The position numbers were made by a program, and so were the translations under genes. A stretch of DNA of 64,000 bases from Nemertoderma westbladi. Lineage: Eukaryota > Animalia > Xenacoelomorpha. The notes beneath the pieces are model-generated. The model made no database searches and was not told where the DNA came from. It saw only the letters and a list, made by a program, of their open reading frames with translations. Numbering within the stretch: the first letter of the stretch is position 1; each line of letters starts with the position of its first letter. The stretch is taken from NCBI GenBank assembly GCA_032718475.1, contig JAUCBJ010008926.1, positions 1-64,000 on the forward strand, in the 5' to 3' direction. Shown here piece after piece: positions 6,696 to 51,300 of the stretch.

Positions 6696-6718
6696 TTTCT
6701 TATTCTAGAAAAATAAAA

Positions 6719-10093: not shown

Positions 10094-10749
10094 CTTGAAT
10101 CTAGAAAAATAAGTTGATTATTTGTAAAAAATAAAAAATACTGTATACTTGCTAAAAATAAAGTAAAACAGTAGATATTAATTGGTTACTAGGCAACAAT
10201 ACTGCATTTGTACAGTTAGTGTAGTAGTGTTAGTGTACCAGCTGCCAGATAGTGGCAATAACCAAGACACAAAAGCGATGGCAGTTATTATTCGTGGAAA
10301 GAGGGTCTATAAACAGCAGTCAACAGTCAGTCAGTGCAGTAGTGCTAGTGATATAGTCTGCCAGAAGTCAGACGTATTGGTAGCGTTAACCAATACAAAT
10401 CAACGATAGGCCTAGCTAATCGCTGTGTGAGATCTCAGTTAGTCAGTAGGATATATAGTGAAAACTGCAGTATTCATTGTTGTTCAGTAGGGTCTATATC
10501 GCTACTACGATGGCATTAGGCTAACTCGAATGATCCGGTAGCGGTAGTCAGGTAGACAAGCAGATAGGCAGATGTAGGCCTATTGATCGAATGCTTCGAT
10601 CACGGTTTAGGCTATCGCTACCACTGCAGTCTGATAGTAATTAATAATGAGCCTACTGCAATACTGTTGTACCGGTAGATATTAAAAGTAAATTGTTTGC
10701 TATCGGCATCGAAAGTATAGCTAGATGGTGGAAGGCAGATTTTACTTAC

Positions 10750-25189: not shown

Positions 25190-28100
25190 GAAAATTTCCC
25201 GGAAGCCGAAAATTCACCCCAATATATATAACAGGAATACACAGAAAATATACTGAAGATCAAGTGCTCGAACATCTTAATATCAGAGGCATAGAGACTG
25301 GCCGCATAACCACACGAATAATTGGGAATTCACAGTGTATGAAGGTTACAATTGACTTCATGAATCTCCCACAAGTATTAGATGATAGATTCTGGCCTAA
25401 AGGGATCTCCTGCAGAGAGTGGATAAATTATAGTAATAATAACTGTTGATATGGTATACCTATCAGACAGGGTACAAGAGTGTCGGGATATCACAATCGG
25501 GTTTGACGCAGAAAAAAAGAGGATGAATAACACAAGAGGAGTACGACAAGTGATAACAATGTTCTCACCAACTCGACAGAATCTAGATTGTGTGGATTTG
25601 GTACATACAACTGTCATGGATTTCAGTCCAGTGCAGATTGTGTCTCGACCCTGCTAACTGAATGTCATATACTTGGAATCAGGAGCACTGGCTCGACAAC
25701 ATTGGGTGTAAAGAGACTCTAAACGAGTTCCATAGTAACTTCTTCTGCGAATACATAACTAGCAATTTAATGCTGAATGGGTGCCGCACATGCGGTGCAG
25801 GTGGTGTTGCATTATTATTTTCCAAGGATATCATCAATAACTAGTCATGGGTCGAATCAGGAGATGACATGTCATATTAATATGACATTATTAATTGATG
25901 CCAGGCATGCTGCATTGCAGCTGCATTTTTAAGAATGCTGTGCCGGCTTGTCGACAAAATTGCGCCGCCACAACTCCCTATCACCCATGACATTTGCTAG
26001 ATCATCCGCATCTTCAAGGCCTTTATGAGTCCTTTATGATGGGTCTCAAGAAAGTCATGGGCTGTCCACCATGCTTATTCACTCCATGAGGCGAGGCTGC
26101 CAAAGTACAAGATTATGCACTGGCTGGTCGTCACGGCGAAAGCAATGTCCTGCAAAGCGGAGGCGATTTTGTTCTAGTGTTAAGCTTGGGGGAACCAATG
26201 AGACACCTCCAATGTTATATAGTGTCTGGTTGGAGATGTGTGCATTGTGCTTGACACAATGAACCCGGCGTAGCATTCTTGTGAATGTGCCATCCAGAGA
26301 TTTGGTGTCCTCAGCAGTTAGAGCCCAGCATGGACACCCATAGAGGAGTACTGGAACTACTGCTGCTCTAAATAATCGGACCTTAAGTATCCGATTAATT
26401 CTCGGTGACTTCCAAATCCTGGAAAGCCTATTCAAGGCTGCCCATGCGTATTCCAAGATCCTCACCTGACTTCCGGATCCATGATCCCAGGTAACAGAAG
26501 TCGTCCACATGCTCAAGCATACCATCCTTTGAGCTTATGCTCATCCGATCAGAGACTTGCTGAGGACTTTCAAAGTTAACTGTCAAAATTTTGGTCTTTC
26601 TGGAGTTAATAAAAAGACCAACACTAGAAGCAGCATGTTCTAATGAGCTGAGTAGCCGTTGGGCTCCCACTAGTGATTGTGAGAGTACTCCTAAGTCATC
26701 AGCAAAGTCTAGATCAGTTAGGTACTTGGCAGGATTTCCTCGACTTCTGGAGCCAGTAGGTGGAGTTATCATCACCCCATCATCATTATGATGATCTAAG
26801 GACATGCGTAGAACATAGTCAACCACAATTATGAATAAGAATGGTGCAAGCGTGTCTCCTTGGAGGACGCAACATAACACTTCAAATGGTTCTGTGTCAC
26901 CATCAACAGTAGACACAAATGTTGTAGAACCATCGTATACTGATCTGATTGCTGTAATAATTTCCCATGGGAATCCCATATAATGAATGTATGGATCGAC
27001 TTAATAGCATGGTAGAGGAGTACAGCAATGCTATCCCCATTATTCTAATGGACTCGAATGCAGATCTCGGTCCACTACAAGGTAACAGTCACTGTCGGAC
27101 TTTTTCTTCTCCCCGTGGTTTCACTTTTAATAATTTTCTAAACAGAACTGACCTCACCGCCGTTGATACATACCAATTTGTTGAAGGACCCTGCTACTCT
27201 TTCTATCGCAACACTTGTGGCATCTCTTTTATTGATCATATCTTATGTACCCAGGAGATATCGGATATGTGCATCCGAAGAGAAGTCTTCAAGCCTAATC
27301 CTGTGAGCAATTTCTCAGATCACGTCCCAATTATTGTTCAGTTGGAAATTCCATTTCCTCTTATCCAAACAACTATTCCCGTGGTAGGTGAGCATGACAT
27401 TTCAATATATTATAATACGTAATACGTTATTATTCTATAACACAAATTTTCCTGAAGTTCAACGATTTAATAATGGGAACCTCCATAAAAATTAGCTACG
27501 GACTTAAACAAGGTAGTTTATTATCTCCAAGTTTATTTAACATATACATAACAGACATATTTGAGTCTCTCGAAAGCGACGGAATTGGGTGCAGTATTGG
27601 TGATTTGTGGGTAGGATGTCTTAATTACGCAGATGACCTTCTACTACTTGCCACATCCCTGAAAGACTTTGAAACAGTGGCACAGATCATCAACACCAAG
27701 ACCAAAGAACTCAAATTGAGAGTTCCAAATCAAAGTGGATATACTCCGGCAGTCCTAGTGTCTCCCCCATGCTCCTTAATATTGGAGAAAACTTGATCCA
27801 GCGATCTGAACAAATTGAATTTCTCGGTTTTACATTACAATGTGGCAAGCTGGATGCCCTTAACTGTCGAAGCAATCACTTGTTATATTAAGCGAAACTT
27901 TCCATAGACATGGCTGGACAACTAGATATCTATACTGTGATACATTAGGACATCTATGGAATACAATAGCTGTGCCCGCTGCCCTACAGTATATAACCTT
28001 CAATTCCTAATAGGTGCATTAAATATGACGCAGCTCCATGAACTGGATGGTTTCTATCTTAAACTACAGCGCGGTCTGTGCTGCCCTGGTTCATATGTCC

Positions 28101-28705: not shown

Positions 28706-30574
28706 TGCCAGCTTGACTGGTCTGCGCCCCCGAGTTATTATGTACTTCTATTGAACACAAACTTATACATGTTATCCAGCAACATGCTGTTAGCTCTTCG
28801 TCCTTAAATGGTCATAGGAACTACGCCACATCTTAGCAACCAACAACCTCGAGTTTAGTTCGAATAATCCCGAGGATATCCCGCACATTCTCCATGAGTA
28901 GTGGTGCGATCGAAACTAAGAATGGAAGTTAACTTAAAAAAGTATAACCTAGACCTAACTTGGTAACAAGATAACTATCTGGCCAGGGCTATTTTACAAT
29001 GTGATTGGCCGGGGGTCATTTTAGAAATTTTTTAGATCATGGCTCAAAAAATAAAATGTTGATAGTATAAGTGTTATCAAGGTCGCTGATCACGAAAAAA
29101 CTTGTTAAAAATATTTATTTTCTGACAGTGCAACCATCACCTTTGGTGCTATTTTGGTGCTACGAAAAGTACAAGTAAAAAAAATGCCAAACTAAACATT
29201 TTGAGTTTGGTGTTTGATAATTCCGAACGTATATGGGTTTTCGAGGTCGCTGATCATGATGAAAGTAATTATAAATATTTCTGGTATGTGCAAACCCAAT
29301 TTTGGTGCTATTCTGATGCCCCAGAACGAAAATTACAATAAGCAAAAATTTCAAACTGTTAAATTTTGTCTTTGGTTTTGTAATTCTGAAGCTATACTGG
29401 TTTTCAAAGCCGCTGATAACGATACAACTCGTTAAAAATAATTCGTGGTAACGCAACTATCGTTTTTGGTGTTTGTCTGGTGGGACGAAAAATACAAGTA
29501 GCATAAAATTTCAAACGGCAAAAATCAAATTTGGTTGGATAAAACGTCATATTCGTGATCAGCATTCCAGAAAACCCATAATGTCATAAAACCAGGTTGA
29601 TTCCGGTAATGATTTTTGATTATCTAATTTGTGCTACTTATATTTTTTGTGCCGCACATTGACATTGACACGTATTCCAAAAAGCCGTAATTAACAAGGT
29701 GCGATATTTTTCAGTGTCATATTCCTGATCAGCATCACAAATATCCACATGGTCATAAAGTCAATTTGTTTTCGTTGTAATTTTTCTTTATCATATTTCC
29801 GCTACTTGTTTTTTTCGCGCTCCAGAGGCACAAATAACAGACTAATAATTAATATAACAACATGCCTGCCTATGTTGTTATATTACACAACTCTTTGATA
29901 TGTTTGATGAAGAGGAAAAATCCTTCCCAATGAAATCGGCACATTCTAAAACCTCAGTAGCCAAACTGTATGGCCAATTTACCACTTTTGAAAAAAGTGC
30001 TACTTGTACTTTTGGTGCTTTTTTAGTATCTATTGATAAAAAAATGAAAATTTTGCTTCTAATCTCGCTTTCGATTACTAATAATGAATTCAACAAACCA
30101 AAAAAGCATAGAATGGTTTCATGGTTATACCGAAGTCTTTGAAGGGTGATGTATTTTGTGTAATTGTTTTTTTTTCTTTGTCTTTTTCTTAGGTTTCATA
30201 TTTAGTATATACCTTGAAATGGGAAAATATGTCGTTACAACAAAAAGTGCAGTAAGACCAGTAAGTACAGTAAGACCAGCTCATTCAAATGTTTGAAACT
30301 TGACCAAAATTGACTGTACAGCTACATAGATTGGTTTTAAAGTGCGCAGTAGGCGTTGTTGGTTTGGGAAAGTGTTGATTATATAATTTAAAATAAATTA
30401 AGAAGTGTATTTAATATTTTGTTACATTATGTCAACTTAACAGCGTTCTGGTGAATTACTCGGAACGCTGCAAAGTACTACTTTGCAGAGTTGCGGCCTA
30501 TAGGACGGAACGCTGCAAAGTAATAAATGATATGGAAACAACTTCAATCACCGTATTCCAGAACATATATTAAG

Positions 30575-31850
30575 AACACGAAGTGGGGCCTTCGCGCAGC
30601 ACGTGACTTAAATTTAATTTAAGTACTAATTCGAAAGTATTACTGTATTAGCAAATTTTAAGCAGATTTCGCCTAATCACTTTTTACCTCTTTCATTTCT
30701 ATTCAGACATTTCTGACTCTAGCGGTATAGTGAGAACTGAAGATGGATTAGGGTCTCCAGCCCCACAAAGACACAGCCTATGGATGAATAGTACATACGT
30801 ACATCGGCCAAGTTTCATCTTGAATAACGGATAACGAAATGAGAGACGGATCTCACTTTCAGAAATTTCGTCGTATAGCGGCAGACCGATTAAATCTCCC
30901 CCCCCCCCCCCCCCCCCCCCACAAAGACGCAGCATGTGGTCCAGAATATATGGCAAGATTCAGCTTAAACTGATTAAAATCAATGAGACGGGAGAATCTA
31001 TTCACTTTCAGGCATAAAGTAGTCCTATAGCGGGTGACTGTTGAACTGATTTTCAACAAAACAAATTTTCAACTTGGCAGCTTTAAATTCGACAAAGTTA
31101 TAAGCATGTCAATATCATAACGACGACAACGATTTCACTTTCAGACATTTGGCCCTCTAGCGGCAGACTGGAGAACTGCAGATGGATTCGCCTCCTTTGA
31201 AAGTCACAGCTAATGGTCTAATACATATCTGCCAAGTTTCAGCTTAAACGGATTAAAAGCAAAGAAATGGGAGGGCATTTAATGTTTAGACATGTGGCCC
31301 TCTAGCGGGAGACCATTGCACTGATGGTGTCTGAAAGTCTCTCAAAAATCTCAACTTTAGCTCATATTGATACCTACAAATTTTCAACTTGGCAGCTTTA
31401 AATCCGACAAAGTTATTAGCATGTCAAAATCGTAACGACGACAACGATTTCACTTTCAGACCTTTGGCCCTCTAGCGGCAGACTGGAGAACTGCAGATGG
31501 ATTCGCCTCCTTTGAAAGTCACAGCTAATGGTCTAATACAAATCTGCCAAGTTTCAGCTTAAACGGATTAAAAGCAAAGAAATGGGAGGGCATTTAATGT
31601 TTAGACATGTGGCCCTCTAGCGGGAGACCATTGCACTGATGGTGTCTGAAAGTCTCTCAAAAATCTCAACTTTTGCTCATATTGATACCTACAAATTTTC
31701 AACTTGGCAGCTTTAAATCCGACAAAGTTATTAGCATGTCAAAATCGTAACGACGACGACGACGACGACGACAACTATTTGCATAAATTGACCCACCCCC
31801 TAACAGTGTCAATTCGCTAAGGCTCCGCCAACTTCGTGGCTCGCCCCACA
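30575..31850 (-). mobile_element. Helentron-associated (HINE/DINE-1-like) non-autonomous element, copy 1
   Basis: Ends CACGAAGTGGGGC...ACTTCGTGGCTCGCCCCACA (subterminal inverted repeats); (GAC)n microsatellite; 315-bp internal subunit duplicated; no coding capacity. Confidence 0.65.
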
Positions 31851-31981
31851 TTATTTCCATTTACGTTAATTAATGAGTGCTGCTTTATTATCCAGTTTGC
31901 AGTGACAGGACTAGCTACTGTATGTAAATAATTGTTTAACGTGTACTGTAAAATCCATTATAGCGAAACCTCCACTAGAAG

Positions 31982-32974
31982 ACACGAAGTGGGGCCTTCG
32001 CGCAGCACGTGACTTAAATTTAATTTAAGTACTAATTCGAAAGTATTACTGTATTAGCAAATTTTAAGCAGATTTCGCCTAATCACTTTTTACCTCTTTC
32101 ATTTCTATTCAGACATTTCTGACTCTAGCGGTATAGTGAGAACTGAAGATGGATTAGGGTCTCCAGCCCCACAAAGACACAGCCTATGGATGAATAGTAC
32201 ATACGTACATCGGCCAAGTTTCATCTTGAATAACGGATAACGAAATGAGAGACGGATCTCACTTTCAGAAATTTCGTCGTATAGCGGCAGACCGATTAAA
32301 TCTCCCCCCCCCCCCCCCCCCCCACATAGACGCAGCATGTGGTCCAGAATATATGGCAAGATTCAGCTTAAACTGATTAAAATCAATGAGACGGGAGAAT
32401 CTATTCACTTTCAGGCATAAAGTAGTCCTATAGCGGGTGACTGTTGAACTGATTTTCAACAAAACAAATTTTCAACTTGGCAGCTTTAAATTCGACAAAG
32501 TTATAAGCATGTCAATATCATAACGACGACAACAATTTCACTTTCAGACATTTGGCCCTCTAGCGGCAGACTGGAGAACTGCAGATGGATTCGCCTCCTT
32601 TGAAAGTCACAGCTAATGGTCTAATACATATCTGCCAAGTTTCAGCTTAAACGGATTAAAAGCAAAGAAATGGGAGGGCATTTAATGTTTAGACATGTGG
32701 CCCTCTAGCGGGAGACCATTGCACTGATGGTGTCTGAAAGTCTCTCAAAAATCTCAACTTTTGCTCATATTGATACCTACAAATTTTCAACTTGGCAGCT
32801 TTAAATCCGACAAAGTTATTAGCATGTCAAAATCGTAACGACGACGACGACGACGACGACAACGACGACGACGACAACGACGACGACGACGACGACAACT
32901 ATTTGCATAAATTGACCGACCCCCTAACAGTGTCAATTCGCTAAGGCTCCGCCAACTTCGTGGCTCGCCCCACA
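31982..32974 (-). mobile_element. HINE/DINE-1-like element, copy 2 (one fewer 315-bp subunit)
   Basis: Near-identical to 30575-31850, with a longer (GAC)n tract. Confidence 0.65.
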
Positions 32975-33317
32975 CTAAAATGACTATAGAAAATGGCGAC
33001 AGTGTTCAGTAAAACTGAACTATTATTTTCAAGAAAAATTACGCGGTTCCTAAATTTGTACACTACCCGGTTAAAAAGTACGCATGTGATGGGATTAGTC
33101 CTACAATTGCGCCAATAAAAGATAAGTTATTTTCGGTAAAATAAACTTATCATTCGAGGTTAAGACCCCTAGATCCCTTCTTATAATAAAATGTATAATA
33201 ACAAACACCTCGAAAAATACAGCTTGCCAACACATTGTTACTATCAATAATCAAAAATCAGGGGCTAATAAAATGGCAGCTGTCTTTGAAATTAATACTC
33301 CATATCTCAAGAACCTG

Positions 33318-33370
33318 TGGCCTAGTGGTTGTAGTCTCGGCTTCCGCCTCGAGGTCCCAGGTTCGAATCC
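33318..33370 (+). promoter_or_regulatory. tRNA-derived internal Pol III promoter (repeated at +412, +824, +1236)
   Basis: A box TGGCCTAGTGG at 33318-33328; B box GGTTCGAATCC at 33360-33370. Confidence 0.8.
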
Positions 33371-33373
33371 GAC

Positions 33374-33416
33374 ACCACGCTGATGAGACCCAGTAAGGTC
33401 GAAACGCGTACGTGGT
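33374..33416 (+). ncRNA. Type I hammerhead ribozyme, copy 1
   Basis: Stem I ACCACG/CGTGGT; core CTGATGA; stem II GACC-CAGTAA-GGTC; GAAA; palindromic minimal stem III ACGCGT; predicted cleavage after GTA (33410). Confidence 0.92.
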
Positions 33417-33785
33417 TTGGAGAGATATGAGATATTAATTTCAAGAAAAATTACGCGATTCCTAAATTTGTACACTACCCGGTTAAAAAGTACGCATGTG
33501 ATGGGATTAGTCCTACAATTGCGCCAATAAAAGATAAGTTATTTTCGGTAAAATAAACTTATCATTCGAGGTTAAGACCCCTAGATCCCTTCTTATAATA
33601 AAATGTATAATAACAAACACCTCGAAAAATACAGCTTGCCAACACATTGTTACTATCAATAATCAAAAATCAGGGGCTAATAAAATGGCAGCTGTCTTTG
33701 AAATTAATACTCCATATCTCAAGAACCTGTGGCCTAGTGGTTGTAGTCTCGGCTTCCGCCTCGAGGTCCCAGGTTCGAATCCGAC

Positions 33786-33828
33786 ACCACGCTGATGAGA
33801 CCCAGTAAGGTCGAAACGCGTACGTGGT
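33786..33828 (+). ncRNA. Type I hammerhead ribozyme, copy 2
   Basis: Identical to 33374-33416. Confidence 0.92.
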
Positions 33829-34197
33829 TTGGAGAGATATGAGATATTAATTTCAAGAAAAATTACGCGATTCCTAAATTTGTACACTACCCGGTTAAAA
33901 AGTACGCATGTGATGGGATTAGTCCTACAATTGCGCCAATAAAAGATAAGTTATTTTCGGTAAAATAAACTTATCATTCGAGGTTAAGACCCCTAGATCC
34001 CTTCTTATAATAAAATGTATAATAACAAACACCTCGAAAAATACAGCTTGCCAACACATTGTTACTATCAATAATCAAAAATCAGGGGCTAATAAAATGG
34101 CAGCTGTCTTTGAAATTAATACTCCATATCTCAAGAACCTGTGGCCTAGTGGTTGTAGTCTCGGCTTCCGCCTCGAGGTCCCAGGTTCGAATCCGAC

Positions 34198-34240
34198 ACC
34201 ACGCTGATGAGACCCAGTAAGGTCGAAACGCGTACGTGGT
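34198..34240 (+). ncRNA. Type I hammerhead ribozyme, copy 3
   Basis: Identical to 33374-33416. Confidence 0.92.
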
Positions 34241-34609
34241 TTGGAGAGATATGAGATATTAATTTCAAGAAAAATTACGCGATTCCTAAATTTGTACACT
34301 ACCCGGTTAAAAAGTACGCATGTGATGGGATTAGTCCTACAATTGCGCCAATAAAAGATAAGTTATTTTCGGTAAAATAAACTTATCATTCGAGGTTAAG
34401 ACCCCTAGATCCCTTCTTATAATAAAATGTATAATAACAAACACCTCGAAAAATACAGCTTGCCAACACATTGTTACTATCAATAATCAAAAATCAGGGG
34501 CTAATAAAATGGCAGCTGTCTTTGAAATTAATACTCCATATCTCAAGAACCTGTGGCCTAGTGGTTGTAGTCTCGGCTTCCGCCTCGAGGTCCCAGGTTC
34601 GAATCCGAC

Positions 34610-34652
34610 ACCACGCTGATGAGACCCAGTAAGGTCGAAACGCGTACGTGGT
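34610..34652 (+). ncRNA. Type I hammerhead ribozyme, copy 4
   Basis: Identical to 33374-33416. Confidence 0.92.
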
Positions 34653-35664
34653 TTGGAGAGATATGAGATATTAATTTCAAGAAAAATTACGCGATTCCTA
34701 AATTTGTACACTACCCGGTTAAAAAGTACGCATGTGATGGGATTAGTCCTACAATTGCGCCAATAAAAGATAAGTTATTTTCGGTAAAATAAACTTATCA
34801 TTCGAGGTTAAGACCCCTAGATCCCTTCTTATAATAAAATTCAGTAAAACTGAACGGACACAGACGGTGACTAAGTTTGCGTCAGTCGACTATAGTCAAG
34901 ATGCATTAATGAATTATCACATTCAAGCAGGAGATAACTTCCAATAAACTTTAATTAGATTTAAATGTATAATTAATACTGTGTACCTGTTAATAAATTT
35001 CACTTATATTCGATATAGTACATGATTAAAATGTTTAAATGAGCATCCATAAAATCCTTTCTTCACAAACCGAATGCTGATAAGTTGACATAATGTAACA
35101 AAATTAAATACATCATTGCTTGCAAAGGTCAAAATACCCTTGTTTATTTATATCAACCTCCCTCGCTGCGCTCGCTAGGTACATAAATAAAAACTCGTGT
35201 CATAACGCTGCAAAAGTGCTACTTTGCACACAATGATGTAAATAGTTATTGTTTACTTTAGATAAAGTGCAATTAACAAGTATTATTTTGAAAACGTAAC
35301 ATTCGTATATCATTAATTATTGCTCTACACAATATTCATATTCGGTGAAGTTGATACTAATAGTAAACCAGTCAACTGCCAAGTGGAAGAAACTAGTTGA
35401 AAATTACTAATATTATTAATATTATTATATTATTAAAATTATAGAAATTTATAACCTGGGCTTGGCCTATTTATTAAGAATTCGTATTATTAAAATTCTT
35501 AATAGTTCAGAAATTTATTCGGAAATTAAATCGCAGCAAATTTTGCGGGAGACCATATTACTCTATAACCATAAGTCTCGCTGTGAAGGACATGTTGTAA
35601 AAGTAATTATTTATTACTTGGAAAAAAAAGTAGAACCTTTTGTCACTATTATCGATATATTTCA

Positions 35665-36591: not shown

Positions 36592-37440
36592 CATGCCCAT
36601 GCCGCCCATGCCCATACTCATTCCCATGCCGCCCATGCCCATACTCATTCCCATGCCGCCCATGCCCATACTCATTCCCATGCCGCCCATGCCCATACTC
36701 ATTCCCATGCCGCCCATGCCCATACTCATTCCCATGCCGCCCATGCCCATACTCATTCCCATGTCGCCCATGCCCATACTCATTCCCATGCCGCCCATGC
36801 CCATACTCATTCCCATGCCGCCCATGCCCATACTCATTCCCATGCCGCCCATGCCCATACTCATTCCCATGCCGCCCATGCCCATACTCATGCCCATGCC
36901 GCCCATGCCCATACTCATGCCCATGCCGCCCATGCCCATACTCATGCCCATGCCGCCCATGCCCATACTCATTCCCATGCCGCCCATGCCCATACTCATT
37001 CCCATGCCGCCCATGCCCATACTCATGCCCATGCCGCCCATGCCCATACTCATGCCCATGCCGCCCATGCCCATACTCATGCCCATGCCGCCCATGCCCA
37101 TACTCATGCCCATGCCGCCCATGCCCATACTCATTCCCATGCCGCCCATGCCCATACTCATTCCCATGCCGCCCATGCCCATACTCATTCCCATGCCGCC
37201 CATGCCCATACTCATTCCCATGCCGCCCATGCCCATACTCATTCCCATGCCGCCCATGCCCATACTCATTCCCATGCCGCCCATGCCCATACTCATTCCC
37301 ATGCCGCCCATGCCCATACTCATTCCCATGCCGCCCATGCCCATACTCATTCCCATGCCGCCCATGCCCATACTCATTCCCATGCCGCCCATGCCCATAC
37401 TCATTCCCATGCCGCCCATGCCCATACTCATTCCCATGTC
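36592..37440. repeat. 27-bp minisatellite, ~31 copies
   Basis: Unit CATGCCGCCCATGCCCATACTCAT(T/G)CC. Confidence 0.97.
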
Positions 37441-38704: not shown

Positions 38705-41700
38705 ATGGTTGTCAAACGCTGCATCTGCGAAATATGTAACTGCGGGTAAGTTGATGTAAATATAAAAAATTTTTAATTTAACTACCGGTATTAAAATTAT
38801 TTGGAATTTAAGGAGGGGGGGGGGGGGGGGGGGGGGGGGGGTACACCATTTTGGTCCAAAATGTGTAGAGATTATTTTTATGATCTATTATAATGAACGA
38901 TTAAATGGAGTTTCCAAATCTGAAAACCGCTATTTAATAGCTCTTTTAGTTTATAACAGTTATGTAAATTTCCATTTAGGGATTCCTATTGAAATTACTA
39001 TTACTATGTGTAATTAAAGGTCGATTATCTACAAATATTTTTTTATGAAATTGTCAACTTCAAAACCCTACTGCTACTACTTCTACAATTTTTGAGCTGA
39101 AAAGTAGTCTGAAAATTTCTGTGGTGTCTACATAGCCACCCTGCATAAAATGTAATAATAAAAAAAATGTAATACTATTTATAACAAACCTAAAAAATTA
39201 GCATCAATTTGCAGTGCCACCTAGCGGTGCAGAATTATTTTTTCAAAATTTCGCCTGATAGTTATGTTGCCCCATCTTAGATCTATCATATAAAAAACTT
39301 TCATGTGATTAGATTCAGAACTGTAAAAGCCTTGGCGGCTTTAAGCGCAACCAAGTTTTTTTTATTGTTAACTAGTATTAACTAATATTAAATTTATTTA
39401 TTAATTAAATTAATTAAATTAATTGATATGGCCCCAATAGCTCAGTTGGCAGAGCGTGGGACTTGGAATCTCTAGGTACCGAATTCAATCCCCTATTCCG
39501 GTGAATGTTTTTTTATTGGTAGTAAGCCTTTCAAGGAGACATTTCATGCGTTAGTAGACGCGGACCTTTGCGCGATTTCGCGCTTGTTATAATTTAAATG
39601 CATCGATACTTTACAGTGGCATATTACACGAACGAACGTAATGAGTGAGTGTAGATAAGTTACGTGAATCAGCCCACTGTAAAGTTCTTTAGAATACCCT
39701 TGTTTGTAGATTTATTCCATAACTGTAACATAATAACTGGTATGCCAAAGTACGTTAGCTGTTATAAGGTTTACCTGGAATATTTTTCGGAATATTTATT
39801 AATAGTATCAGCCTTTGTTGCAGTAACCTCGACGATTTCAAGTTTCAGGTTCAGTTCCATTGTAAAGAAATGAAACTGACCTGGAGTTGTAAATTCTACT
39901 TTACTTCGCTATTTAATCTGTATATGTAATGTTGTCATCTTTATTAGTTACAATATGTTTCATAACTCACTAGAACTCGCTAATGATGGCGTCAAGTAAT
40001 ATTTAAAAATCGTGGTAATAACTATTTACATACTCATTTACCCCACCCCAACAGACATTTACATACTTGTGTGTAAAGTAGCACTTTACAGTGTGAGAAC
40101 GTAGTGAGTGAGTGAAAATAAAGCCACGAGGATCAGAACACTGTAAAGTACTTTGCAACAAGTATGTATGTAGTTTTATTCCAAATTTTAACATTACGAA
40201 ATGATTTTACATATACATTATATATTATTTATGGTGACGTTTGGAGCCATGTTATAATAATATAGCTAGGCCCTACTGGTTATTGTTATTAATAGCTATA
40301 CCCTGCCTACCGGTAGGTAATGCAGTAGGCCTATCTGGCTGTCAGGCAAATTTCCACCTACATTGTTTACGTGGTATCCAATGACGGCGTTAAGTAATGT
40401 TCCCATATTGGACATTACTTAACGCCGCCATGGGTTACCACGTAAACAATAACACCAAATACAATACTAAATGTACAGGCCAATACAATGCTGTAATGTC
40501 CTCTAAAGTTGTAAAATGCTAAAAACAACTCGCTGTTAGTTAATACTAACGGCGTTGAGTAATGTTACTATTTTGGAATAATAACTATTTACATCATTGT
40601 TTGTAAAGTAGCACTTTGTAGCACTTTGCAGTTATGACCGAGTTTATTTATGTACCGAGCGAGCGCAGCGAGGGTGGTTTACATCAATAAACAAGGGTCT
40701 TTAACGCTAAAAGGTGACCTTTGCAAGCAATGATGGATGTAATTTTGTTACATTATCTAAACTTATCAGCGTTCGGTATGTGAAGAAAGGATTTTATGGA
40801 TACTCATTTATACATTTTAATCATGTACTATATCGAATATAAGTGAAATTTATTAACAGGTACAAAGTATTAATTATACATTTATATCTAATTAAAGTTT
40901 ATTGGAAGTTATCTCCTATATGGATGTGATAATCATTAATCCATCTTGACTATAGTCGACTGAAGCAAACGTAGTCACCGTCTGTGTCCGTACAGTTTTA
41001 CTGAACACTGTCGTCACTTTCTTTGGTCATTTTCTCTAAGTGTCTTCTATTGGACGTTTCGCCACAATGGATTACAGTACACGTTAAACAATTATTTACA
41101 TACATTAGCTAGTCCCGTCACTGCAAACTGGATAATAAAGCAGCACTCATTAACATAAATGGAAATAATACATTCTGGAATACGGTAATTGAAGTTGTTT
41201 CCATGTCATTGATTACTTTGCAGCGTTCCGTCCTATAGGCCGCAACGCTGCAAAGTAGTACAGTACTTTGCAGCGTTATGAGTAATTCACCAGAACGCTG
41301 TTAAGTTGACATAATGTAACAAAATATATATTTATTATATTGTATATGAATTATCCAATAATTCATATAATGAATGTAAAAATAACAATTCAAATAATAT
41401 TGCAGCCATTAGCTTAATTTATAATGTAAATGAATTTTCACAACGGTGTTGCTAGGCGACTACAGTAATTAAACATTTTATCGATCTGTGTTTTTGTTCA
41501 TAGCTAATTTGTATTTTAATTTCTAGCGCTGGCAGCTTTTACTTAACTACAAACCCTGTATGCGATAATAGTCGAGGCGTACTTATTTACCATTAATTAA
41601 TTTTGCATACTAATTTTTATCACAATATCGTGTTCTTAAATCAAGACGTTTATCGTTGGATTCAATTAAAATTTATTGAGCATTTTAAATTAGTTTTTGA

Positions 41701-44700
41701 AATTTTGGAACGATTTTTAAAACATACAAAAATAAATTGTGTATTTAAAAATTAATTTGTTGAGTTATGACTGCAGTATATCATAATATTTGTACCGTTA
41801 ACCCAGACACGGTAGCTAAAAGAACAGTGGAAAAAATGTCTTGAGGTACAATAATTATTTGAAACTATCATGTCAAGAAATATTTAGCTAAGTTAGCAGC
41901 AATAGGCTGATGAATATGCTGGTACATAGCATTACTGTGACCCTGGGGGATGAGCTTATTAAACTGTCAGAATGCGAGAGAGCCTGGGACTGGTTTTAAT
42001 AATAATCATACCCTAGTGCAGTGCCATATGCTGACAGTCTCATGTCACTCCAAGTAAGCTAAGTGGGAGTGTAAGCAAGCTACCTAAGCTATATTGCAAT
42101 ATTATTATTATTATTAAACAGAAAATGTAATCAAACTGCTTGAATTACATATTATTGTATTATGCATACAGTAAAACCAAATTGTAGGCCTACATGGACT
42201 ACACACTGTACTAATAGGGTGGTCTAACCGTTAGACTAGGGTACATAGCGTATATTGACTATTTGATTAATTTTTTTAATAATAACATAATAATTTTTAA
42301 TAGTTTAATAACACGAAGCAAAACTAAAATTATTGTTCGTAAAAAGTCCGGCGTTATTCCAAATTTAATCTAAAATAATTGGCAATTATGGTAATCCGAC
42401 GTTGTATTTGTGAAATTTGTACATGCGGGTAAGTGATATTAATAGCGATAAAATCATAGAATTATCTATGTATTATTTCATATAAAATTTAATATTATCT
42501 GATTTAGTTGTTATGAGTATAGTGTATATTATTGTGATTTGTTTTTATGATTATTTGTTTTTATTTGTTTTTGTGTTTTGATATTGTTATAAAATCAATC
42601 AATAAATTCTGTCCATAACTATCCAATTTGGTACACTCCACTTTGTTACATTTTATCTGAATATACTTTTTAAAAAGCAAATTTTTGAATTCTTTTTGGA
42701 AATATACTTGAACTTGTTAGAGTTTATCTATTTCAATTAAAATGATATTCTATAGATTAATTATTTTTTGTAAATATGGGAGCCAATATGTATTATATTA
42801 TATTATCACGTGTTATTAATTATCTTACCGACTTTACGAGTAAATTCTGTGCGGTTGGACAGCTTGCGGTGCTAAATTATTTATAATAGTGTGTTGTCAA
42901 TAAATATCTATCTATATTCTATCTATTGAGTTCGGGTTTGGGTTACGGTTAGGATTAGGGTTAGGTTTGCTAATATAAAAAAATAAATTGAAAAATATGT
43001 GAAAAATAGTTTAATTTAATTTAGCTAACATAATATGAACTACAGTAAACCAGTTTCAAAAATAATTATACTGAATATTACGTGTATATATAACGTAGAA
43101 CATTTTTTATATTCTCGAGGCATTTTATTTACCGAGCGCCAGCGCGGGTAATAAACAGGTCGATCGGGAAATAACAAAACGAGGGCCCTAAAAGCTTTAA
43201 AGTGCTTTATGAACAATGGCGAATCTAATATTATTTATTTGTGTGGAAGAATTTGTCATTATCCATATATTATTTAAATATTCTAGAACATCCTTTTAAC
43301 TTGAAAGCACGACTGACATTTTAATTATAAATACTTTCTTATCATGCGAAGTTAGCGTAGTGGGTAACACGTTTGGTTATGAATATAATGGTCTTAGGTT
43401 CGATTCTTAGTAAATCAATTTTTGTAAGTTTTAGAATTGTAAAATATTTATAGTGTGTAGGCCTATTGCCTATTCAGATGAAGTCATGTGATTATATTTA
43501 GAATGACGCGGTGACATACTGGAAATATATAGTAAATGAATGGCGTAGGAGAGGGGGATACTGATAAATATCTCGCACTGCGATATAAAGTCGATTATAC
43601 TAATGGGGATTCGTTAGTGCGAAGTTAATTCCAAACAAATAAATAAAAATGTTCTACATCACCTTTTTTTCCCTAGTAATACGTAATTTTGTTCTTAAAT
43701 TGGTACATTTTTGTTGCTCAATTATTTAATAAAGGATAGAACGATATAGTGTTAGACGAGGTGAGGCAATCGCGCGGCACGTGACATAAAGCGTCTTATG
43801 TTAAGTGTCAACTCGAATGAATTATAAGCTATAGCTAAGCATATATACCAATAAGCTAAGCATATATCCCCCAATCACTTTACCACCAAGAGGCAGACAA
43901 AAATACGAAAGAGCTTCGAACGTTTTCAATTCAGATATTTTTAAAATGATTTCTTTTCAGCTCACTGGCGGTACAGCCTGGAGAACTGAAGAGGGATTAC
44001 TGTCCCAACAAAAACGAAGCCTGTGTCTACAGTCTAACATGTAGGACTAGGCCTACATCTCCCAAGTTTCAACTTGAACGGATAACAAAATTACGAAATA
44101 AGATAAGGTTTTCACTTTGAGATATTTCAACCTCTAGCAGCAAACTTTAGAAGTCTAGATGGAGTGCCGACCCATAAAGAAGCAGCCATTTTTCTAGTAT
44201 ATGCCAAGATTCAGCTTAAGCGAATTAATATCAAGAGGAGAAGGTTATCACTTTCGTACACTTCGACCTCTATCGTCAGACTGGAGATAAGGTAATCGGC
44301 AGACCGATTACCGACCGCACAAAGAAGATGTGTTCTAGTACATATCTGACCAGTTTCAGCTTGAACGGATCATAAATAACGGAATGGGTAAAGGCTTTCA
44401 CTTTGAGACTTTTCGCCCAATAGCGGCAGACTAGAGAACTGCAGACGAATGACCCTCCTTTGAATGGCACAGTAAATGAAATAGAACAATTCTGCCAAAT
44501 TTCAGCTTGAACGGATTAAAAGCAAATAAATGGAAGGACATTTAGCGTTTTGACATGTAGGCCTAGCCCTCTGCGGGAGACTGTTACACTGATGGTGTCT
44601 GAAAGTCTCTAAAAATCTCTACCTGTTCAACTTATTGATGCCTACAAATTTTCAAACGACAACGACAACAAAAATTAACCCACCCCCCTATCAGTGTCAA

Positions 44701-45339
44701 CTCCGCCAACTTCGTCGCTCACCCCACAAAATAAGTTGACTATATTGCTTCCATAGTTACTGCTATTCAAATTATTGTACTCTTCAACTCTCGATGTTGC
44801 CTTACTCAATGTTAAAATAGTTTTGTGTTCTCGAATATTTATTACGTAACTAAAGAGCCGCTTAACTACCGACATAACACAATATTGGATATTGAGTTCC
44901 GTGCAATAACTTTTGAATGTTTGAATGGATTTTGCTCAAATTACTTGAATCTACTCCGATGCTCTTTCAAAAACATGTAATAAAATTTAGGAAATTCCAC
45001 CAAAAATATTTTATTTTATTTTACTTTTTTCGCCGAAAAAAAAAGTAAATTGTATGCAATCCTATAGGTTACTTTTTCCCTAGGGAAAAATGTACTTCTT
45101 TCTTCCGATTTTGGGTCGATATTCGGTCGAAAAAGTACAATTATTTAAGAATAAAATTCCTAAAACATTTCCTAAAAAGTAGCAAAAACTACCGGGTAGC
45201 AATAAAAACTGCCAAGTGGAGTTCACCACATTCCCTCAAATTCCATTAAAGAATTTTGCTTGTGGGGCGAGCCACGAAGTTGGCGGAGCCTTAGCGAATT
45301 GACACTGTTAGGGGGTGGGTCAATTTATGCAAATAGTTG

Positions 45340-45371
<32 letters not shown>

Positions 45372-48300
45372 GTCGTCGTCGTTACGATTTTGACATGCTA
45401 ATAACTTTGTCGGATTTAAAGCTGCCAAGTTGAAAATTTGTAGGTATCAATATGAGCAAAAGTTGAGATTTTTGAGAGACTTTCAGACACCATCAGTGCA
45501 ATGGTCTCCCGCTAGAGGGCCACATGTCTAAACATTAAATGCCCTCCCATTTCTTTGCTTTTAATCCGTTTAAGCTGAAACTTGGCAGATATGTATTAGA
45601 CCATTAGCTGTGACTTTCAAAGGAGGCGAATCCATCTGCAGTTCTCCAGTCTGCCGCTAGAGGGCCAAAGGTCTGAAAGTGAAATCGTTGTCGTCGTTAC
45701 GATTTTGACATGCTAATAACTTTGTCGGATTTAAAGCTGCCAAGTTGAAAATTTGTAGGTATCAATATGAGCTAAAGTTGAGATTTTTGAGAGACTTTCA
45801 GACACCATCAGTGCAATGGTCTCCCGCTAGAGGGCCACATGTCTAAACATTAAATGCCCTCCCATTTCTTTGCTTTTAATCCGTTTAAGCTGAAACTTGG
45901 CAGATATGTATTAGACCATTAGCTGTGACTTTCAAAGGAGGCGAATCCATCTGCAGTTCTCCAGTCTGCCGCTAGAGGGCCAAATGTCTGAAAGTGAAAT
46001 CGTTGTCGTCGTTACGATTTTGACATGCTTATAACTTTGTCGAATTTAAAGCTGCCAAGTTGAAAATTTGTTTTGTTGAAAATCAGTTCAACAGTCACCC
46101 GCTATAGGACTACTTTATGCCTGAAAGTGAATAGATTCTCCCGTCTCATTGATTTTAATCAGTTTAAGCTGAATCTTGCCATATATTCTGGACCACATGC
46201 TGCGTCTTTGTGGGGGGGGGGGGGGGGGGGGGGAGATTTAATCGGTCTGCCGCTATACGACGAAATTTCTGAAAGTGAGATCCGTCTCTCATTTCGTTAT
46301 CCGTTATTCAAGATGAAACTTGGCCGATGTACGTATGTACTATTCATCCATAGGCTGTGTCTTTGTGGGGCTGGAGACCCTAATCCATCTTCCGTTCTCA
46401 CTATACCGCTAGAGTCAGAAATGTCTGAATAGAAATGAAAGAGGTAAAAAGTGATTAGGCGAAATCTGCTTAAAATTTGCTAATACAGTAATACTTTCGA
46501 ATTAGTACTTAAATTAAATTTAAGTCACGTGCTGCGCGAAGGCCCCACTTCGTGTTTAACTATATTTTATTATTAATACTATTTAATGACGTGACATTTG
46601 TTGCCTTCTAGACGCCACCGCTGCCCACTGCATCCCAAGGCCGCTATTAAACCATCCGGAGAGGTTTGCAAATACACCGAATATGTAGACAAGTACAAAG
46701 CCTACCCAGGGATAATGCCGCCTCCGTCGATGAGGCCGAAGAAAGACTTAGCTAAGTCCGACGCTCCAATGGAAGGAGATACAACCTCCAGGTCGGTGTC
46801 AATGATTCTACATTGTCATTTCTGGAAACTTGTAAACACCATGTACAGTACAGGGGTACACGTACAGTCAGTACCCCAATAATATTAATTCAATTGTATG
46901 GAAGGATTGAAAAAATATTAGATAATGTAGGGAGAAACAATATTCTAGAACATGATAATTAATGTTCTAGATCATAATTTTGAAAAATTTCTATAATATT
47001 AATTTAGAGAAAATTTCATTTAATATTATAGATATGATTCATTTTATAATTAAGCGATTTTAATAGAATAAAAAGTCAAAAGAAAAAATATTGTGAACAA
47101 TATTTTTGTTTTGACTTTTTATTCTATTTAAATCGCTCTAAAATTGTTCTAAGTCTAGAACTCTAGACTTAGAACAATTTTTAGAATCCGAAGAGCATAC
47201 ATGTCGGGCTCATTCCATGAAAAGGTCTCACATATATTCATCCTTTGGAATGAAATGTATGTTAGCCATGTAAAGTCCCATACTTTACCAAAAATAGTGA
47301 CATTTTTAGTTTATTCACAGAGAAGTAACTCAGCCTAAAGACCCAATGGAATGCAAAGAACGTTGCGTCATCTTAAATAACAATTAATTGCTTAATTACA
47401 AAATGTTTTTATATCTTTTTCAACACTTTTATTTTAGATAAAAATAATCTAATGAATTTATCAATTAAAATAAAATGTTTTGTTTACATAAAATATAATA
47501 ATATAAATATCACCTTTATACTATTAATTTCCGTTGGGTGAGTTTAAATCTCCCGCCATCAGTTTCAGCCTCATATCGAGGTCGTACGGGTCGTCCTCGA
47601 TACTAGCTGATTCCTGATTGGTTGGCTCCAGGGCAACCTTCTCCATGGTGATGAGTCTTCGCGACATGTGACGACTGAGTATCTGTTCGTTGTTTGCGAT
47701 CAGTCGGAGGCCAGGGTGTCTGGGGATCTGGGCTGGGGAGTAGGTGGGGCGATACACCGGTAGCCAGTAGACCAGACGACCTCCCGGCACCAGGGTCGCG
47801 TAGGATAGATTGAGGAGCGAAACGAGGATGGAAGACAGCGAGAAACGAACCTAAATAATAAATAGTACAATAAGAAGGAAATGTTAAGGGGGTGAAGGGA
47901 TATAAACTCAATGTTTATTTACTTTATTTTATTTACTTGATATATAAAGTGCTAAAATACGAAAATTGCAATTTTATTCGAAAATGTAAGGATTTAATTT
48001 ATTGCGATATGATTTTTAAATAAATGGAAAGTGGTTCATAAATAAATGAAATTGTAACTAATAATATAATTAAATTGGTTTATAAACTCAATTAGTTATT
48101 ATTGTTGTCAACTTTGTCCCGGATTTAATTATTGGTCTTTTTCTCCGACGGAATTATTATGTTCTAAATTAAACAAATTCCTTTTAAATAATTAATCATT
48201 CTCTTCTCTTCCTTTTAATTTAGTTTATTATTTAAAATTTTAATGTTAAAAATTCAATTTCCTTATTATTCCCCTTTGGTAGTTGAGCAGTATACAGAGA

Positions 48301-51300
48301 GTGCTGCGTTATCACAATAATTCCTGTATATCATTAAGAAAACGTATTGAGAGAAGGCATACCGGTAATGTGTGTGGGTCTACTGTTAGATACAGTATAC
48401 AGATTGACGGCGTGATATGGAGTTATACATTCTCACCCGATTTCTAAAGTATTCTCAACTACCGCATAAAGTATTCTCACCCGCAGAATAAAGTATTCCT
48501 TCACGTCGGAAAAAGCATTGTAAGACGGCGTATAAAGTTATCTCACTCGCCGAATAGAGTACTCTAAGCGGATGTATACAGCATTATAACCAGCCAAATA
48601 AAGCATTTTAAACCGCCGTATAAAACAATATTACACGACAAATAAAATATACGCACCCACAGTAAAAATCATTCTACGCGGCTGTATAAAGCATTCTCAT
48701 ATGCCGAATAAAGTTTTATCGCTGCCGTATAAAGTTAGGCATTTTATAGACCCACCCGCACCCGCTCTATCCGATTATGAGTTACATAATATTTCCAATT
48801 TCGAATGAAATATGGAAATAAAGTAAAATTACCTTACTGGCGTAGCTCGCTGGTTTATCGATGTCGGAGACCCCGGTTCCGATCCGTTCCGATCGCCCGG
48901 GTCCGACTCCGATTCGAGCCGTCGGTTCCCGGACGCCGTACGGCGGGTCGGCGATCACCGCGTCGAACATCCCCGCGAGGGGCGCCCTCACACCGAGCCG
49001 AGCCACGTCGGCGACGACGAGATCGAGCAACCGCCCCTCGATCCCGTAGTCCCGCATACACGTGGCGAGTCGCTCGTCCGGGGGCCTGCGACGCGGCGCG
49101 CCGCTCCGGGTCGCCGCTAGAGGCGCGCCGTGGACGGCGTTGTACGAGAGATCGGCACCGCAGACCGCGGCGCCCCAATGCGCGGCCGGGATCAGCAACC
49201 CGCCGGTTCCGACGAACGGATCGAATACCAACCGCGAGGAGTCGGCGAGTCCGAGGTTCGAAGCGATAAACCCTAGTTCCGGGTCCATCGACGTCGTCCC
49301 GATGAAACTACGAGTTTTCAGAGAGTAACGAGTTAGCAACGAGCGTCGACAACTCTCCCCTAGCAACCGACCGAAGAAAACTCGTTTAGATCGCCCACTA
49401 GCGGCTACAGGGTGATACTCGATCCATACGAACCGAGTTGTTGCATTGTTTAAATCCACAGATCCCTCTAGAGGAAGGAATATAAGAAGCGATTCAACAG
49501 TCTTTAGTTTCTCTTCCGCTGTCAATCGTTTGCCCACGGCGAAAACGTCTATAGCGAAACTGGAAGCCTCGTGGTACAATCTAAGGAAGTTTTCGTTATT
49601 AAGGGTTTCTCGTATTTTATTTAGAACTTCGTTATTCGAACTTCCTTCAGCTATTATCTCGTAGGCGTGTTTCAATAGAATTGTTCTAGATAGAATTAAC
49701 TGAATATTTTTAATCCATTTTTCTCGTCCGGTGCATGTCAACATCAAGAAGGGGCATTTATCGTCTTCTTTATCCCTGGATATCTCAACGGGTGAATTTA
49801 AGTTGAATAATTTAAGTATCGATTCCAGTTCGCTAATGTAAAAGTCGCAGTGGTTCCCGCAGTAATGAAGTAACGCTTTCATACTTCGGTTTGAGTTGAT
49901 ACCGGTATTCCTTGTGACCCCGCTCGCGGTTTTTCCTACTATTTGGCTAATATTACGGGAGTGGAATAATGGGATAAAATGGCGTAAGAAGACTACGTTC
50001 CACATCTAATTATTGATATTATTCCTTTACTTTATTAAAATTAAATATACATGAATAGGCTCTCCGGCATGTAATGTGGAACTTCACTATTATTTGAAAA
50101 TCCCGCTAATTACTAATATATGAAAACTAAAGCTGATTGGCCTGGAGTGTAGCAGCCCTTGTGTTTCCATGTGAAAACATTTAAGGGCATTAAAATATAG
50201 TTCACATCCGCAATGGAAGGTTTCTTATATCTGGTCACTAAGTTTAAATTAAATTAAATAATTTGCTGTAATTATAAGGAAATAATAATTAAATAACCTA
50301 CGTAAACATAGAGGTAGGCATAAATAACTGAGCATTTTTGAAGGATCTCGGATAAACAGTAAAAAATTAATAATCTTTCAGTTTTGATGAATATTATATA
50401 CCACCTTAAATAATTTAGGTGGCCAATCAGTTAAGTAAGACATCATTAACTTTTTGAGTTTTATTAAATAACCACTTTAGTGAAATAATATTTCCAAAGA
50501 TACACCAAATTACAAATTTACGATGATGTATGTGACACTGCTCCTTCATATTATCAAACATAATATTTGGAATAACCCAAATATTATTTAAATTGTCAAA
50601 ACAATAAAATTTAAATTGTGAAAAAATTTCATCGCGATTTGTGAATACCCCCCAGGAAACTGATTGTATTTCTCAAAAAATACAATCTTAACACACAAAA
50701 TCAATATTTCACCCAAATTTGACATATCCATCAAGGTGTTGTTCGTGATATTGACGTTACAAACATTGAGCGGTTGAACCACAGGGACAGCTGTACTGAG
50801 GGGCTAGGTGCATATGTATATGGACTAGGAATTAGGGTATGTACATTATTTACAATGTAGATAATGTTATTATGTTTCAACCCTACCGCATGGGCTAATG
50901 GGGACAATAACCTCCAAACCAAACACAAACCACCAGCGCACCAGGTTGGATTCTTGTACGGACTGTATAGTAGCTCAGCAACACGTTTCAACTCCTTGAT
51001 TGAAATGAAGCAGCGAAACCCTCAATAAAGTCAAATTCAAAATAGCCAACTTCTTTAACCCCCTAGATGCGTTCGGCTAATAAAATATTGCTCTGGATGC
51101 AAATTTGGTAAAAAATGTTGAGGTGACCCAATGCGCCCAAATCAACCACTGCCTTTCGAATAGCCGATACGGGATACTATTGAGTGAGTACAGCCGCTCT
51201 TCTTGTGCATCTTAAGAACTAATAACTCCACTCCTATTTTTGATGTTGTCTACCCCCAATAAAACGAAGTTTGCGAATCTGAGGCGGTCTGTAGCCTACG

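What the first reader, a model, noticed from the sequence alone, without database searches (positions are those of the whole stretch)
33005..34855. tRNA-headed hammerhead retrozyme inserted as a ~4.4-mer with a target-site duplication
Seen: 412-bp units, each with A/B boxes fused directly to a complete type I hammerhead; a 15-16-bp direct repeat flanks the whole array; the paralogous host repeat at ~40990-41006 shows the empty site. Both array ends fall inside a unit rather than at the GUA cleavage site. Known: metazoan non-LTR retrozymes and the schistosome Sm-alpha repeat combine tandem type I hammerheads (Sm-alpha with Pol III boxes), and retrozymes form circular RNAs. Inference: the array arrived in one event, by rolling reverse transcription of a 412-nt circular RNA by a non-LTR RT. 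This may be an undescribed, recently active family.
Basis: partly seen in the sequence, partly recalled or inferred. Interest (0 to 1): 0.88.

Follow-up and report, generated by a model that had tools for sequence, protein, structure and literature searches.

The report
tRNA-headed self-cutting RNA jumping repeat
An animal genome holds 4.4 near-identical 412-base units between two copies of a 16-base target sequence, each unit with a tRNA-like start and a hammerhead motif predicted to cut itself; it is likely a young member of a known kind of ribozyme-carrying jumping element (like blood-fluke Sm-alpha) that would be copied from a circular RNA, which has not been shown.

Summary
In detail: 4.42 units of 412 bp (33021-34839), a perfect 16-bp target-site duplication, an empty site in a paralogous host repeat, and four copies of Pol III A/B boxes followed by a canonical type I hammerhead. 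Sequencing runs show a very abundant family. All units of this array share letters that are in the minority in the family, so they come from one template; one of these letters is common in one sample and nearly absent in two others, which suggests a young sub-lineage. The design (tRNA-derived promoter, hammerhead, tandem copies) is that of schistosome Sm-alpha within the non-LTR retrozymes; Penelope-like elements are the published candidate helper. Circle, cleavage, Pol III transcription and helper were not shown. Against a clean one-event circle: the 5'-most partial unit carries the family-majority letter at 33046 while the four other passes do not, and a T4 stop lies between promoter and next ribozyme. 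Additions: a related fusion in a metagenome contig places the hammerhead core exactly behind a tRNA CCA end; copy ends look biased to A-tracts; the duplicated target is a hairpin. Verdict: new member of a known kind.

The parts
33005..33020 (+). Left target-site duplication, 16 bp; with 33004 it forms a 7-bp DNA hairpin
33021..34839 (+). Tandem array, 4.42 units of 412 bp, 39% G+C, no ORF of 120 aa
34840..34855 (+). Right target-site duplication; its first T also matches the next letter of the unit (1-nt overlap)
33311..33377 (+). tRNA-like head of unit 1: A box from 33318, anticodon-like arm 33336-33353, B box 33360-33370, ACCA at 33374-33377; repeated at +412, +824, +1236
   Evidence: not called by ARAGORN or Rfam tRNA
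33374..33416 (+). Type I hammerhead 1, predicted cut after 33410
33786..33828 (+). Type I hammerhead 2, predicted cut after 33822
34198..34240 (+). Type I hammerhead 3, predicted cut after 34234
34610..34652 (+). Type I hammerhead 4, predicted cut after 34646
33411..33822 (+). First of three predicted cut-to-cut monomers (412 nt), strongly self-paired as a line or a circle
   Evidence: z -4.4; circular, z -4.8, 0 of 60 shuffles as low
33422..33444 (+). Arm of a 23-nt long-range stem; partner 33286-33308 (33698-33720 inside the monomer), which lies upstream of the head, so it forms only in unit-length RNA
33542..33545 (+). Only T4 run of the unit: possible Pol III stop between promoter and next ribozyme
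33046..33046 (+). Discordant site: G in the 5'-most pass (as in the family majority), A in the four later passes
34831..34839 (+). A-tract at which the array's 3' end falls (monomer position 193)
32977..33020 (+). Host repeat, piece left of the array (earlier pieces 30414-30563 and 31850-31985, split by two other insertions)
34840..35253 (+). Host repeat, piece right of the array, 88% like the paralog
40577..41327 (-). Uninterrupted paralog of the host repeat; empty site at 40990-41005

Best explanation
This is a 4.4-unit tandem insertion with a 16-bp target duplication, each unit holding tRNA-type promoter boxes and a type I hammerhead motif, and it is likely a young non-autonomous retroelement of the Sm-alpha/non-LTR retrozyme kind that would be copied from a 412-nt circular RNA by a borrowed, probably Penelope-type, reverse transcriptase. 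Steps: (1, inferred) Pol III starts at one head and must read through one T4, or Pol II reads in from outside; (2, predicted) successive hammerheads, probably as dimers through the palindromic helix III, release a 412-nt monomer whose promoter now sits at its 3' end; (3, by analogy with published retrozymes) an RtcB-type ligase closes the circle; (4, inferred) the RT starts at a nicked target on an A-tract of the RNA and runs more than once round, which puts a promoter back upstream of a whole unit; (5, shown as its product) second-strand nicking 16 bp away leaves the duplication.
For: TSD and empty site. More than one unit with both ends inside a unit: a linear cut-to-cut monomer cannot give this. 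All passes share letters at 33181, 33283, 33346 (and 33252) where 89-99%, 74-98%, 93-100% (and 70%, 66% in X1, X3; 5% in X5) of summed contig depth reads otherwise: one template. The array's letter at 33346 holds about 6.7% of depth in X1, 0.01% in X3 and none in X5: a sample-restricted, probably young sub-lineage (depth is a rough share, not a copy number). 4378, 1872 and 190 contigs laid in X1, X3, X5. Canonical hammerhead; helices I and II form in the circular fold with pair probabilities 0.76-1.0; helix III letters are self-complementary, duplex -9.5 kcal/mol for the 10-mer. Long stem needs unit-length RNA. Loose ends behind the A-tract at 33251 (22 contigs in X3, 4 in X5; agreement 0.39 and 0.54) look like those at a known element end at 32974 (agreement 0.36-0.45). 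L006 keeps tRNA 3' half plus hammerhead with a different but fully paired helix I. Published model and PLE link: PMC7229834, PMC7761336, bioRxiv 10.64898/2026.07.22.740005.
Against: Site 33046: one search lists no other letter there and the X4 contig agrees with G, so the 5'-most pass has the majority letter while the four others have A; one circle predicts identical passes (an allele under the 5% listing limit would not show, so whether A is private is open). A T4 lies between promoter and next ribozyme, and T-runs are not depleted against shuffles (P 0.51). The head is not a recognisable tRNA and its T-stem is broken. Helix III is only 2 bp; 8 of 9 Xenopus retrozyme dimers tested by Li et al. 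did not cleave. Only 1 nt of overlap between unit and target at the 3' junction. No Penelope-like ORF among the 11 window frames scanned and no similarity of the unit to the window's LINE fragments, so the helper is taken from the literature.
Confidence: 0.5

Rival explanations
1. Same element, but the template was a linear, uncleaved multimeric transcript of a source array; no circle is needed for movement.
For: Weak helix III favours uncleaved multimers; multimeric RNAs are seen in axolotl and proposed as PLE templates. A mixed source array would explain site 33046 without a second event.
Against: Needs a 1.8-kb transcript that survives four ribozymes and four or five T4 runs from a source array with no other internal difference.
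Confidence: 0.2
2. A 1.4-unit copy was inserted by reverse transcription and then expanded in place by unequal exchange between its 172-bp terminal repeats.
For: Li et al. favour local amplification after a PLE-derived seed.
Against: Needs three expansions with no later mutation, all crossing over downstream of 33046. Even the 1.4-mer needs a circular or multimeric template.
Confidence: 0.2
3. The insertion is real but its unit number is wrong, inflated or collapsed by the assembler.
For: Internal units are letter-identical, so only long reads can count them.
Against: An assembler would not make a 16-bp duplication at an otherwise continuous host repeat, and the units keep minority letters rather than the family majority.
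Confidence: 0.07
4. A satellite DNA that moved as a DNA circle; ribozyme and tRNA boxes are inherited relics.
For: Reintegration of DNA circles has been discussed for schistosome W-elements.
Against: A clean 16-bp TSD, an A-tract end, an intact core and a unit-length RNA fold fit target-primed reverse transcription better.
Confidence: 0.03

Closest known systems
Sm-alpha / Sj-alpha SINE-like hammerhead retroposons of Schistosoma (PMC6765202, PMC8490949, PMC2770079: passages; the original Ferbeyre 1998 paper was not held and not seen)
   Same: tRNA-derived Pol III promoter followed by a type I hammerhead; tandem copies; promoter left at the 3' end of the cleaved monomer so that two or more units are needed to propagate; very high copy number.
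   Different: 412 bp against about 335 bp; Sm-alpha is tRNA-Gln-TTG-like, here the anticodon position reads TCC (parent tRNA not established); GUA rather than the Rfam consensus GUC; host is an animal of undetermined phylum; direct sequence comparison with Sm-alpha was not run.
Metazoan non-LTR retrozymes (Cervera and de la Pena 2020, PMC7229834: Results and Discussion read; review PMC7761336, passages)
   Same: 150-450-bp tandem units with type I hammerhead, G+C under 50%, no ORF, TSD longer than 4 bp, self-paired predicted circle, rolling reverse transcription proposed, PLE proposed as helper.
   Different: The review states that metazoan retrozymes seem to lack promoters; this unit has A/B boxes. 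Circles were shown for coral, mussel and axolotl, not here.
Penelope-like elements and their pseudo-LTRs (PMC4209133 part 1 of 4; bioRxiv 10.1101/2021.04.23.441226 passages; bioRxiv 10.64898/2026.07.22.740005 parts 1-3 of 5)
   Same: Type I hammerhead, partial-tandem insertions, variable TSD.
   Different: No RT or GIY-YIG ORF; the hammerhead has the canonical 6/4/2-bp helices, not the PLE minimal form with a 7-8-bp helix II; no homology to a PLE could be tested.
Ordinary tRNA-derived SINEs (defining features recalled)
   Same: A/B-box head, A-rich end, TSD of 16 bp.
   Different: Insertion starts and ends inside the unit, is multimeric and carries a ribozyme; no LINE-derived tail found against the window's LINE fragments.

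Membership tests
Non-LTR retrozymes | Tandem units of 150-450 bp, each with a type I hammerhead | tested here: met
   412 bp, 4 complete motifs; meets the two-consecutive-units and -5 kcal/mol rule of Li et al.
Non-LTR retrozymes | Non-coding, G+C under 50%, no LTR-plus-internal layout | tested here: met
   161 of 412 G+C; no ORF of 120 aa; plain tandem
Non-LTR retrozymes | TSD longer than 4 bp when present | tested here: met
   16 bp with empty site
Non-LTR retrozymes | Stable self-paired fold of the unit circle with the hammerhead free to form | tested here: met
   prediction only: z -4.8, helix I and II formed
Non-LTR retrozymes | Self-cleavage in vitro | not testable with these tools
   needs bench assay
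Non-LTR retrozymes | Abundant unit-length circular RNA in tissues | not testable with these tools
   only assembled contigs were available; they cannot show strand, ends or circularity
Non-LTR retrozymes | Co-occurrence with, or homology to, an autonomous PLE | not testable with these tools
   no whole genome held; none among 11 window frames scanned
Sm-alpha type | tRNA-derived type 2 Pol III promoter directly before the hammerhead | tested here: met
   A/B boxes at tRNA spacing in 4 of 4 full units; tRNA register kept more fully in L006; motif level only (negative)
Sm-alpha type | Transcription by Pol III through a whole unit | tested here: inconclusive
   one T4 in the path; no T-run depletion
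Sm-alpha family proper | Sequence homology to Sm-alpha outside the ribozyme core | not tested
   no Sm-alpha sequence was on hand; Hammerhead_1 match is below gathering score
Penelope-like element (autonomous) | RT and GIY-YIG ORF between pseudo-LTRs | tested here: not met
   no ORF in the array
Canonical tRNA SINE | Monomer that begins at the tRNA head and ends in a tail | tested here: not met
   array begins at monomer position 23, about 290 nt before the head, and holds 4.4 units

The most novel reading that the evidence does not exclude
A widespread, unrecognised class of self-promoting retrozymes born when a reverse transcriptase fused the CCA end of a mature tRNA to a hammerhead core, so that the CCA itself forms helix I. 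They make their own Pol III circles, are copied by rolling reverse transcription that starts on A-tracts of the circle, and insert at DNA hairpins cut at their base. Sm-alpha would be one outlier of this class.
Probability: 0.2. Interest if true: 0.7.

Novelty: new member of a known kind. Interest (0 to 1): 0.42.

Why it matters
Rolling reverse transcription of retrozyme circles is assumed in the literature but has not been shown in the papers read here. A very young multimer with an intact TSD, an empty site, one private haplotype and a sample-restricted sub-lineage is the kind of locus on which a genome-wide census can separate circle, linear multimer and local expansion. It would also extend the promoter-bearing Sm-alpha design beyond blood flukes and give a compact natural Pol III-plus-hammerhead cassette for making RNA circles. 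The kind itself is known, which caps the interest.

Tried and rejected
No RNA holder listed. X4 is only guessed to be RNA; its single 441-nt contig covers the unit and loops back 412, which a tandem DNA array gives as well as an RNA circle, so it was not used as evidence of expression; the lack of cover on the neighbouring repeat in X4 was not used either. No piece listed (32 of 1117 shown, the longest kept) spans the 34839/34840 junction in X1, X2, X3 or X5; a hole proves nothing, so neither polymorphism nor artefact is concluded. No loose-end row at the cut site among the 18 of 617 shown: too truncated to use. Loose ends at 34834-34838 (agreement 0.43-0.63) mix family read-through, diverged copies and true ends and cannot be separated. 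T-run depletion as a sign of Pol III read-through: rejected (1 observed, 1.6 expected, P 0.51); A-runs are enriched (8 against 3.5, P 0.009). tRNA identity by ARAGORN and Rfam: negative. B-box-plus-core pattern: 0 in viral contigs, 1 of 6 real in metagenome contigs, 0 of 9 in prokaryote genomes; exact-core pattern 0 in viral contigs; CCA-plus-core pattern 1 of 12 completes a hammerhead and is unrelated. Shared tail with a LINE or match to the target's paralog: none at E under 0.2. Taxon: Trm11 is 35-38% identical to its best hits, which include fish, fly, tunicate and tardigrade proteins, so the phylum is undetermined. Earlier findings by sequence or place: none. Paper searches returned no description of this family or of a tRNA CCA end forming helix I; subscription journals, Repbase/Dfam and bioRxiv supplements were not searchable, and PMC3531059 passages added nothing.

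Full report
Observation. The array runs 33021-34839 with period 412 and 4.42 units. The units are identical except for two letters in the first 26 bp, at 33026 and 33046. A perfect 16-bp repeat flanks it (33005-33020, 34840-34855) and occurs nowhere else in the window. The flanks are pieces of one host repeat whose uninterrupted paralog lies at 40577-41327 on the minus strand and holds the 16-mer once, 15 of 16 letters alike. Contigs from three samples read through the empty site too (21, 10 and 11 contigs). The duplication is therefore a real target-site duplication. The same host copy has taken two other insertions (30562-31850, 31982-32977).

Anatomy of the unit. Each of the four complete heads has an A box (33318) and a B box (33360) at tRNA spacing; a regex finds one other such pair in 64 kb. 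ARAGORN and the Rfam tRNA model do not call it, so 'tRNA-derived' rests on motifs and register. The hammerhead (33374-33416) has every core letter, a 6-bp helix I, a 4-bp helix II with a 6-nt loop and a 2-bp helix III with a palindromic cap. That is the canonical metazoan type I form described in PMC4209133 (part 1 of 4 read), which often needs a dimer. Rfam Hammerhead_1 scores 26.0 bits, E 3.4e-5, under its gathering score of 34. The cut-to-cut 412-nt monomer folds far better than shuffles as a line (z -4.4, 0 of 100) or a circle (z -4.8, 0 of 60), with helices I and II formed. Its main 23-nt stem pairs sequence just after the cut with sequence upstream of the next head, so it exists only in unit-length RNA. 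One T4 lies between promoter and next ribozyme; T-runs are not depleted. That T4 can stop metazoan Pol III is recalled, not from a call.

The family. Six of 12 listed runs hold half or more of the unit's words, five of them labelled organism A, from three studies. Laid at 85% likeness, 4378, 1872 and 190 contigs fall on the stretch in X1, X3 and X5. At 33181, 33283 and 33346 most summed depth in all three reads another letter than this array (89-99%, 74-98%, 93-100%); at 33252 this holds in X1 and X3 (70%, 66%) but not X5 (5%). Every pass of the array has the same minority letters, so all units descend from one template. The array's letter at 33346 holds about 6.7% of depth in X1, 0.01% in X3 and none in X5, which suggests a young, sample-restricted sub-lineage; depth is a rough share, not a copy number. 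Among the 18 of 617 loose-end rows shown, those behind 33251 (22 contigs in X3, 4 in X5, low agreement, long tails) have the signature seen at a known element end (32974). That place is an A-tract, as is this array's own 3' end. The tentative reading is that 3' ends prefer A-tracts and are not freely permuted.

A result against the simplest model. At 33046 one search lists no other letter and the X4 contig matches, so G is the family majority. Only the 5'-most pass has G; the four later passes have A. One circle copied 4.4 times gives identical passes. The pattern fits a template switch near the 5' end, a linear transcript of a mixed source array, or a 1.4-unit insertion later expanded by unequal exchange. 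An allele under 5% would not be listed, so I cannot tell whether A is private to this array. I put 0.5 on circle-templated rolling RT, 0.2 each on the linear and local-expansion rivals.

A relative elsewhere. A B-box-plus-core pattern gave 6 matches in metagenome contigs, of which 1 (L006) forms helices I and II; 0 of 9 prokaryote matches do. L006 matches the window's core at 33 of 37 letters, scores 29.9 bits on Hammerhead_1 and has a different but fully paired helix I. It is a single copy on a 1140-bp contig cut off at the head. Counted in tRNA register it shows T-loop, 5-nt T-stem strand, 7-nt acceptor strand, discriminator, CCA, and then the core with no spacer. In the window's unit the 7-nt strand is missing and ACCA plus two letters precede the core. 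Eukaryotic tRNA genes do not encode CCA (recalled), so this hints that the element arose by fusing a mature tRNA end to a hammerhead. The Rfam consensus also has 'cca' one letter before the core. This rests on one well-registered case and is a hypothesis.

Target. The duplicated 16-mer is 16 of the 17 letters of a 7-bp DNA hairpin; 113 of 63978 window positions do as well (0.18%; 0.57% for 6 bp). One site, noticed after the fact, so a lead only. Overlap between unit and target at the 3' junction is 1 nt.

Comparison. Sm-alpha is described as a promoter followed by a hammerhead, apparently Pol III-transcribed, with the promoter left at the 3' end of cleaved monomers so that tandem copies are needed (PMC6765202 passages); it is tRNA-Gln-derived with more than 38,000 ribozyme matches (PMC2770079 passages) and about 335 bp (PMC8490949 passages). 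Non-LTR retrozymes are 150-450-bp tandem units with TSDs longer than 4 bp, shown as circles in coral, mussel and axolotl, ligated in vitro by RtcB, with rolling RT by a PLE proposed (PMC7229834, parts 2-4 of 6; PMC7761336 passages, which says they seem to lack promoters). A 2026 preprint links them to PLE pseudo-LTRs, favours local amplification, and found cleavage in 1 of 9 dimers (parts 1-3 of 5; supplements not seen). This element meets every testable retrozyme feature and the Sm-alpha layout. Cleavage, circle, Pol III and helper were not testable. The host is an animal of undetermined phylum. Eight paper searches found no description of this family. An earlier unchecked note of this scan reports the same design in a probable mollusc; it is a lead, not support.

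Verdict. Real, well preserved, probably young; a new member of a known kind. Interest 0.42, carried by its use as a test case for rolling reverse transcription and by the CCA-fusion lead.

Noticed in passing
L017:548-767 (viral contig): A type I-like hammerhead sits between tRNA-Gln(TTG) 548-624 and tRNA-His(GTG) 693-767 in a phage tRNA cluster. The Gln CCA end is part of helix I and the predicted cut after 691 falls right before the G at 692, the -1 position that tRNA-His needs (recalled). Possible ribozyme-made tRNA end; reminiscent of theta ribozymes (search listing only)..
   Followed up: partly
L006:1-81: tRNA 3' half with CCA fused without spacer to a near-identical hammerhead in another, unidentified organism; telomere-like repeats at 830-871.
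   Followed up: yes
window 30562-31850, 31982-32977 and 45261-46568: Three copies (91-99% alike) of a 1.0-1.3-kb non-coding element with 315-bp internal repeats and short imperfect terminal inverted repeats; two are nested in the same host repeat as the array; its 3' end at 32974 has many different flanks.
   Followed up: partly
window 34838 equivalent, run X5: One contig leaves the unit's A-tract and shows a second CTGATGAG hammerhead-core start 9 letters later; could be a PLE terminal repeat or chance.
   Followed up: no
window 33119/33175 and other joints: An inverted joint present in both X1 and X3, plus internally deleted variants of the unit; inverted 5' pieces are a PLE trait. One contig per run.
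   Followed up: no
window 34840-34875: A host-repeat variant in X1, X2 and X3 goes back 36 bp to exactly 34840, the same position as the array's junction.
   Followed up: no
window 43353-43405: Another A/B-box pair, AT-rich and decayed, no hammerhead; probably an old SINE.
   Followed up: no
window 6189-10117, 13453-17549, 26079-27796: Protein-primed polymerase B pieces (Polinton-like), a Gypsy-type gag-pol region and LINE RT/endonuclease fragments.
   Followed up: partly
window 48782-50005 (-): Single long frame for a TRMT11-like tRNA methyltransferase, 35-38% identical to its best hits, with an abruptly G+C-rich second half.
   Followed up: partly
window 36592-37438 and 4498-5013: A 27-bp minisatellite (31 copies, 99% alike) open in several frames, and a palindromic 22-bp array.
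   Followed up: no
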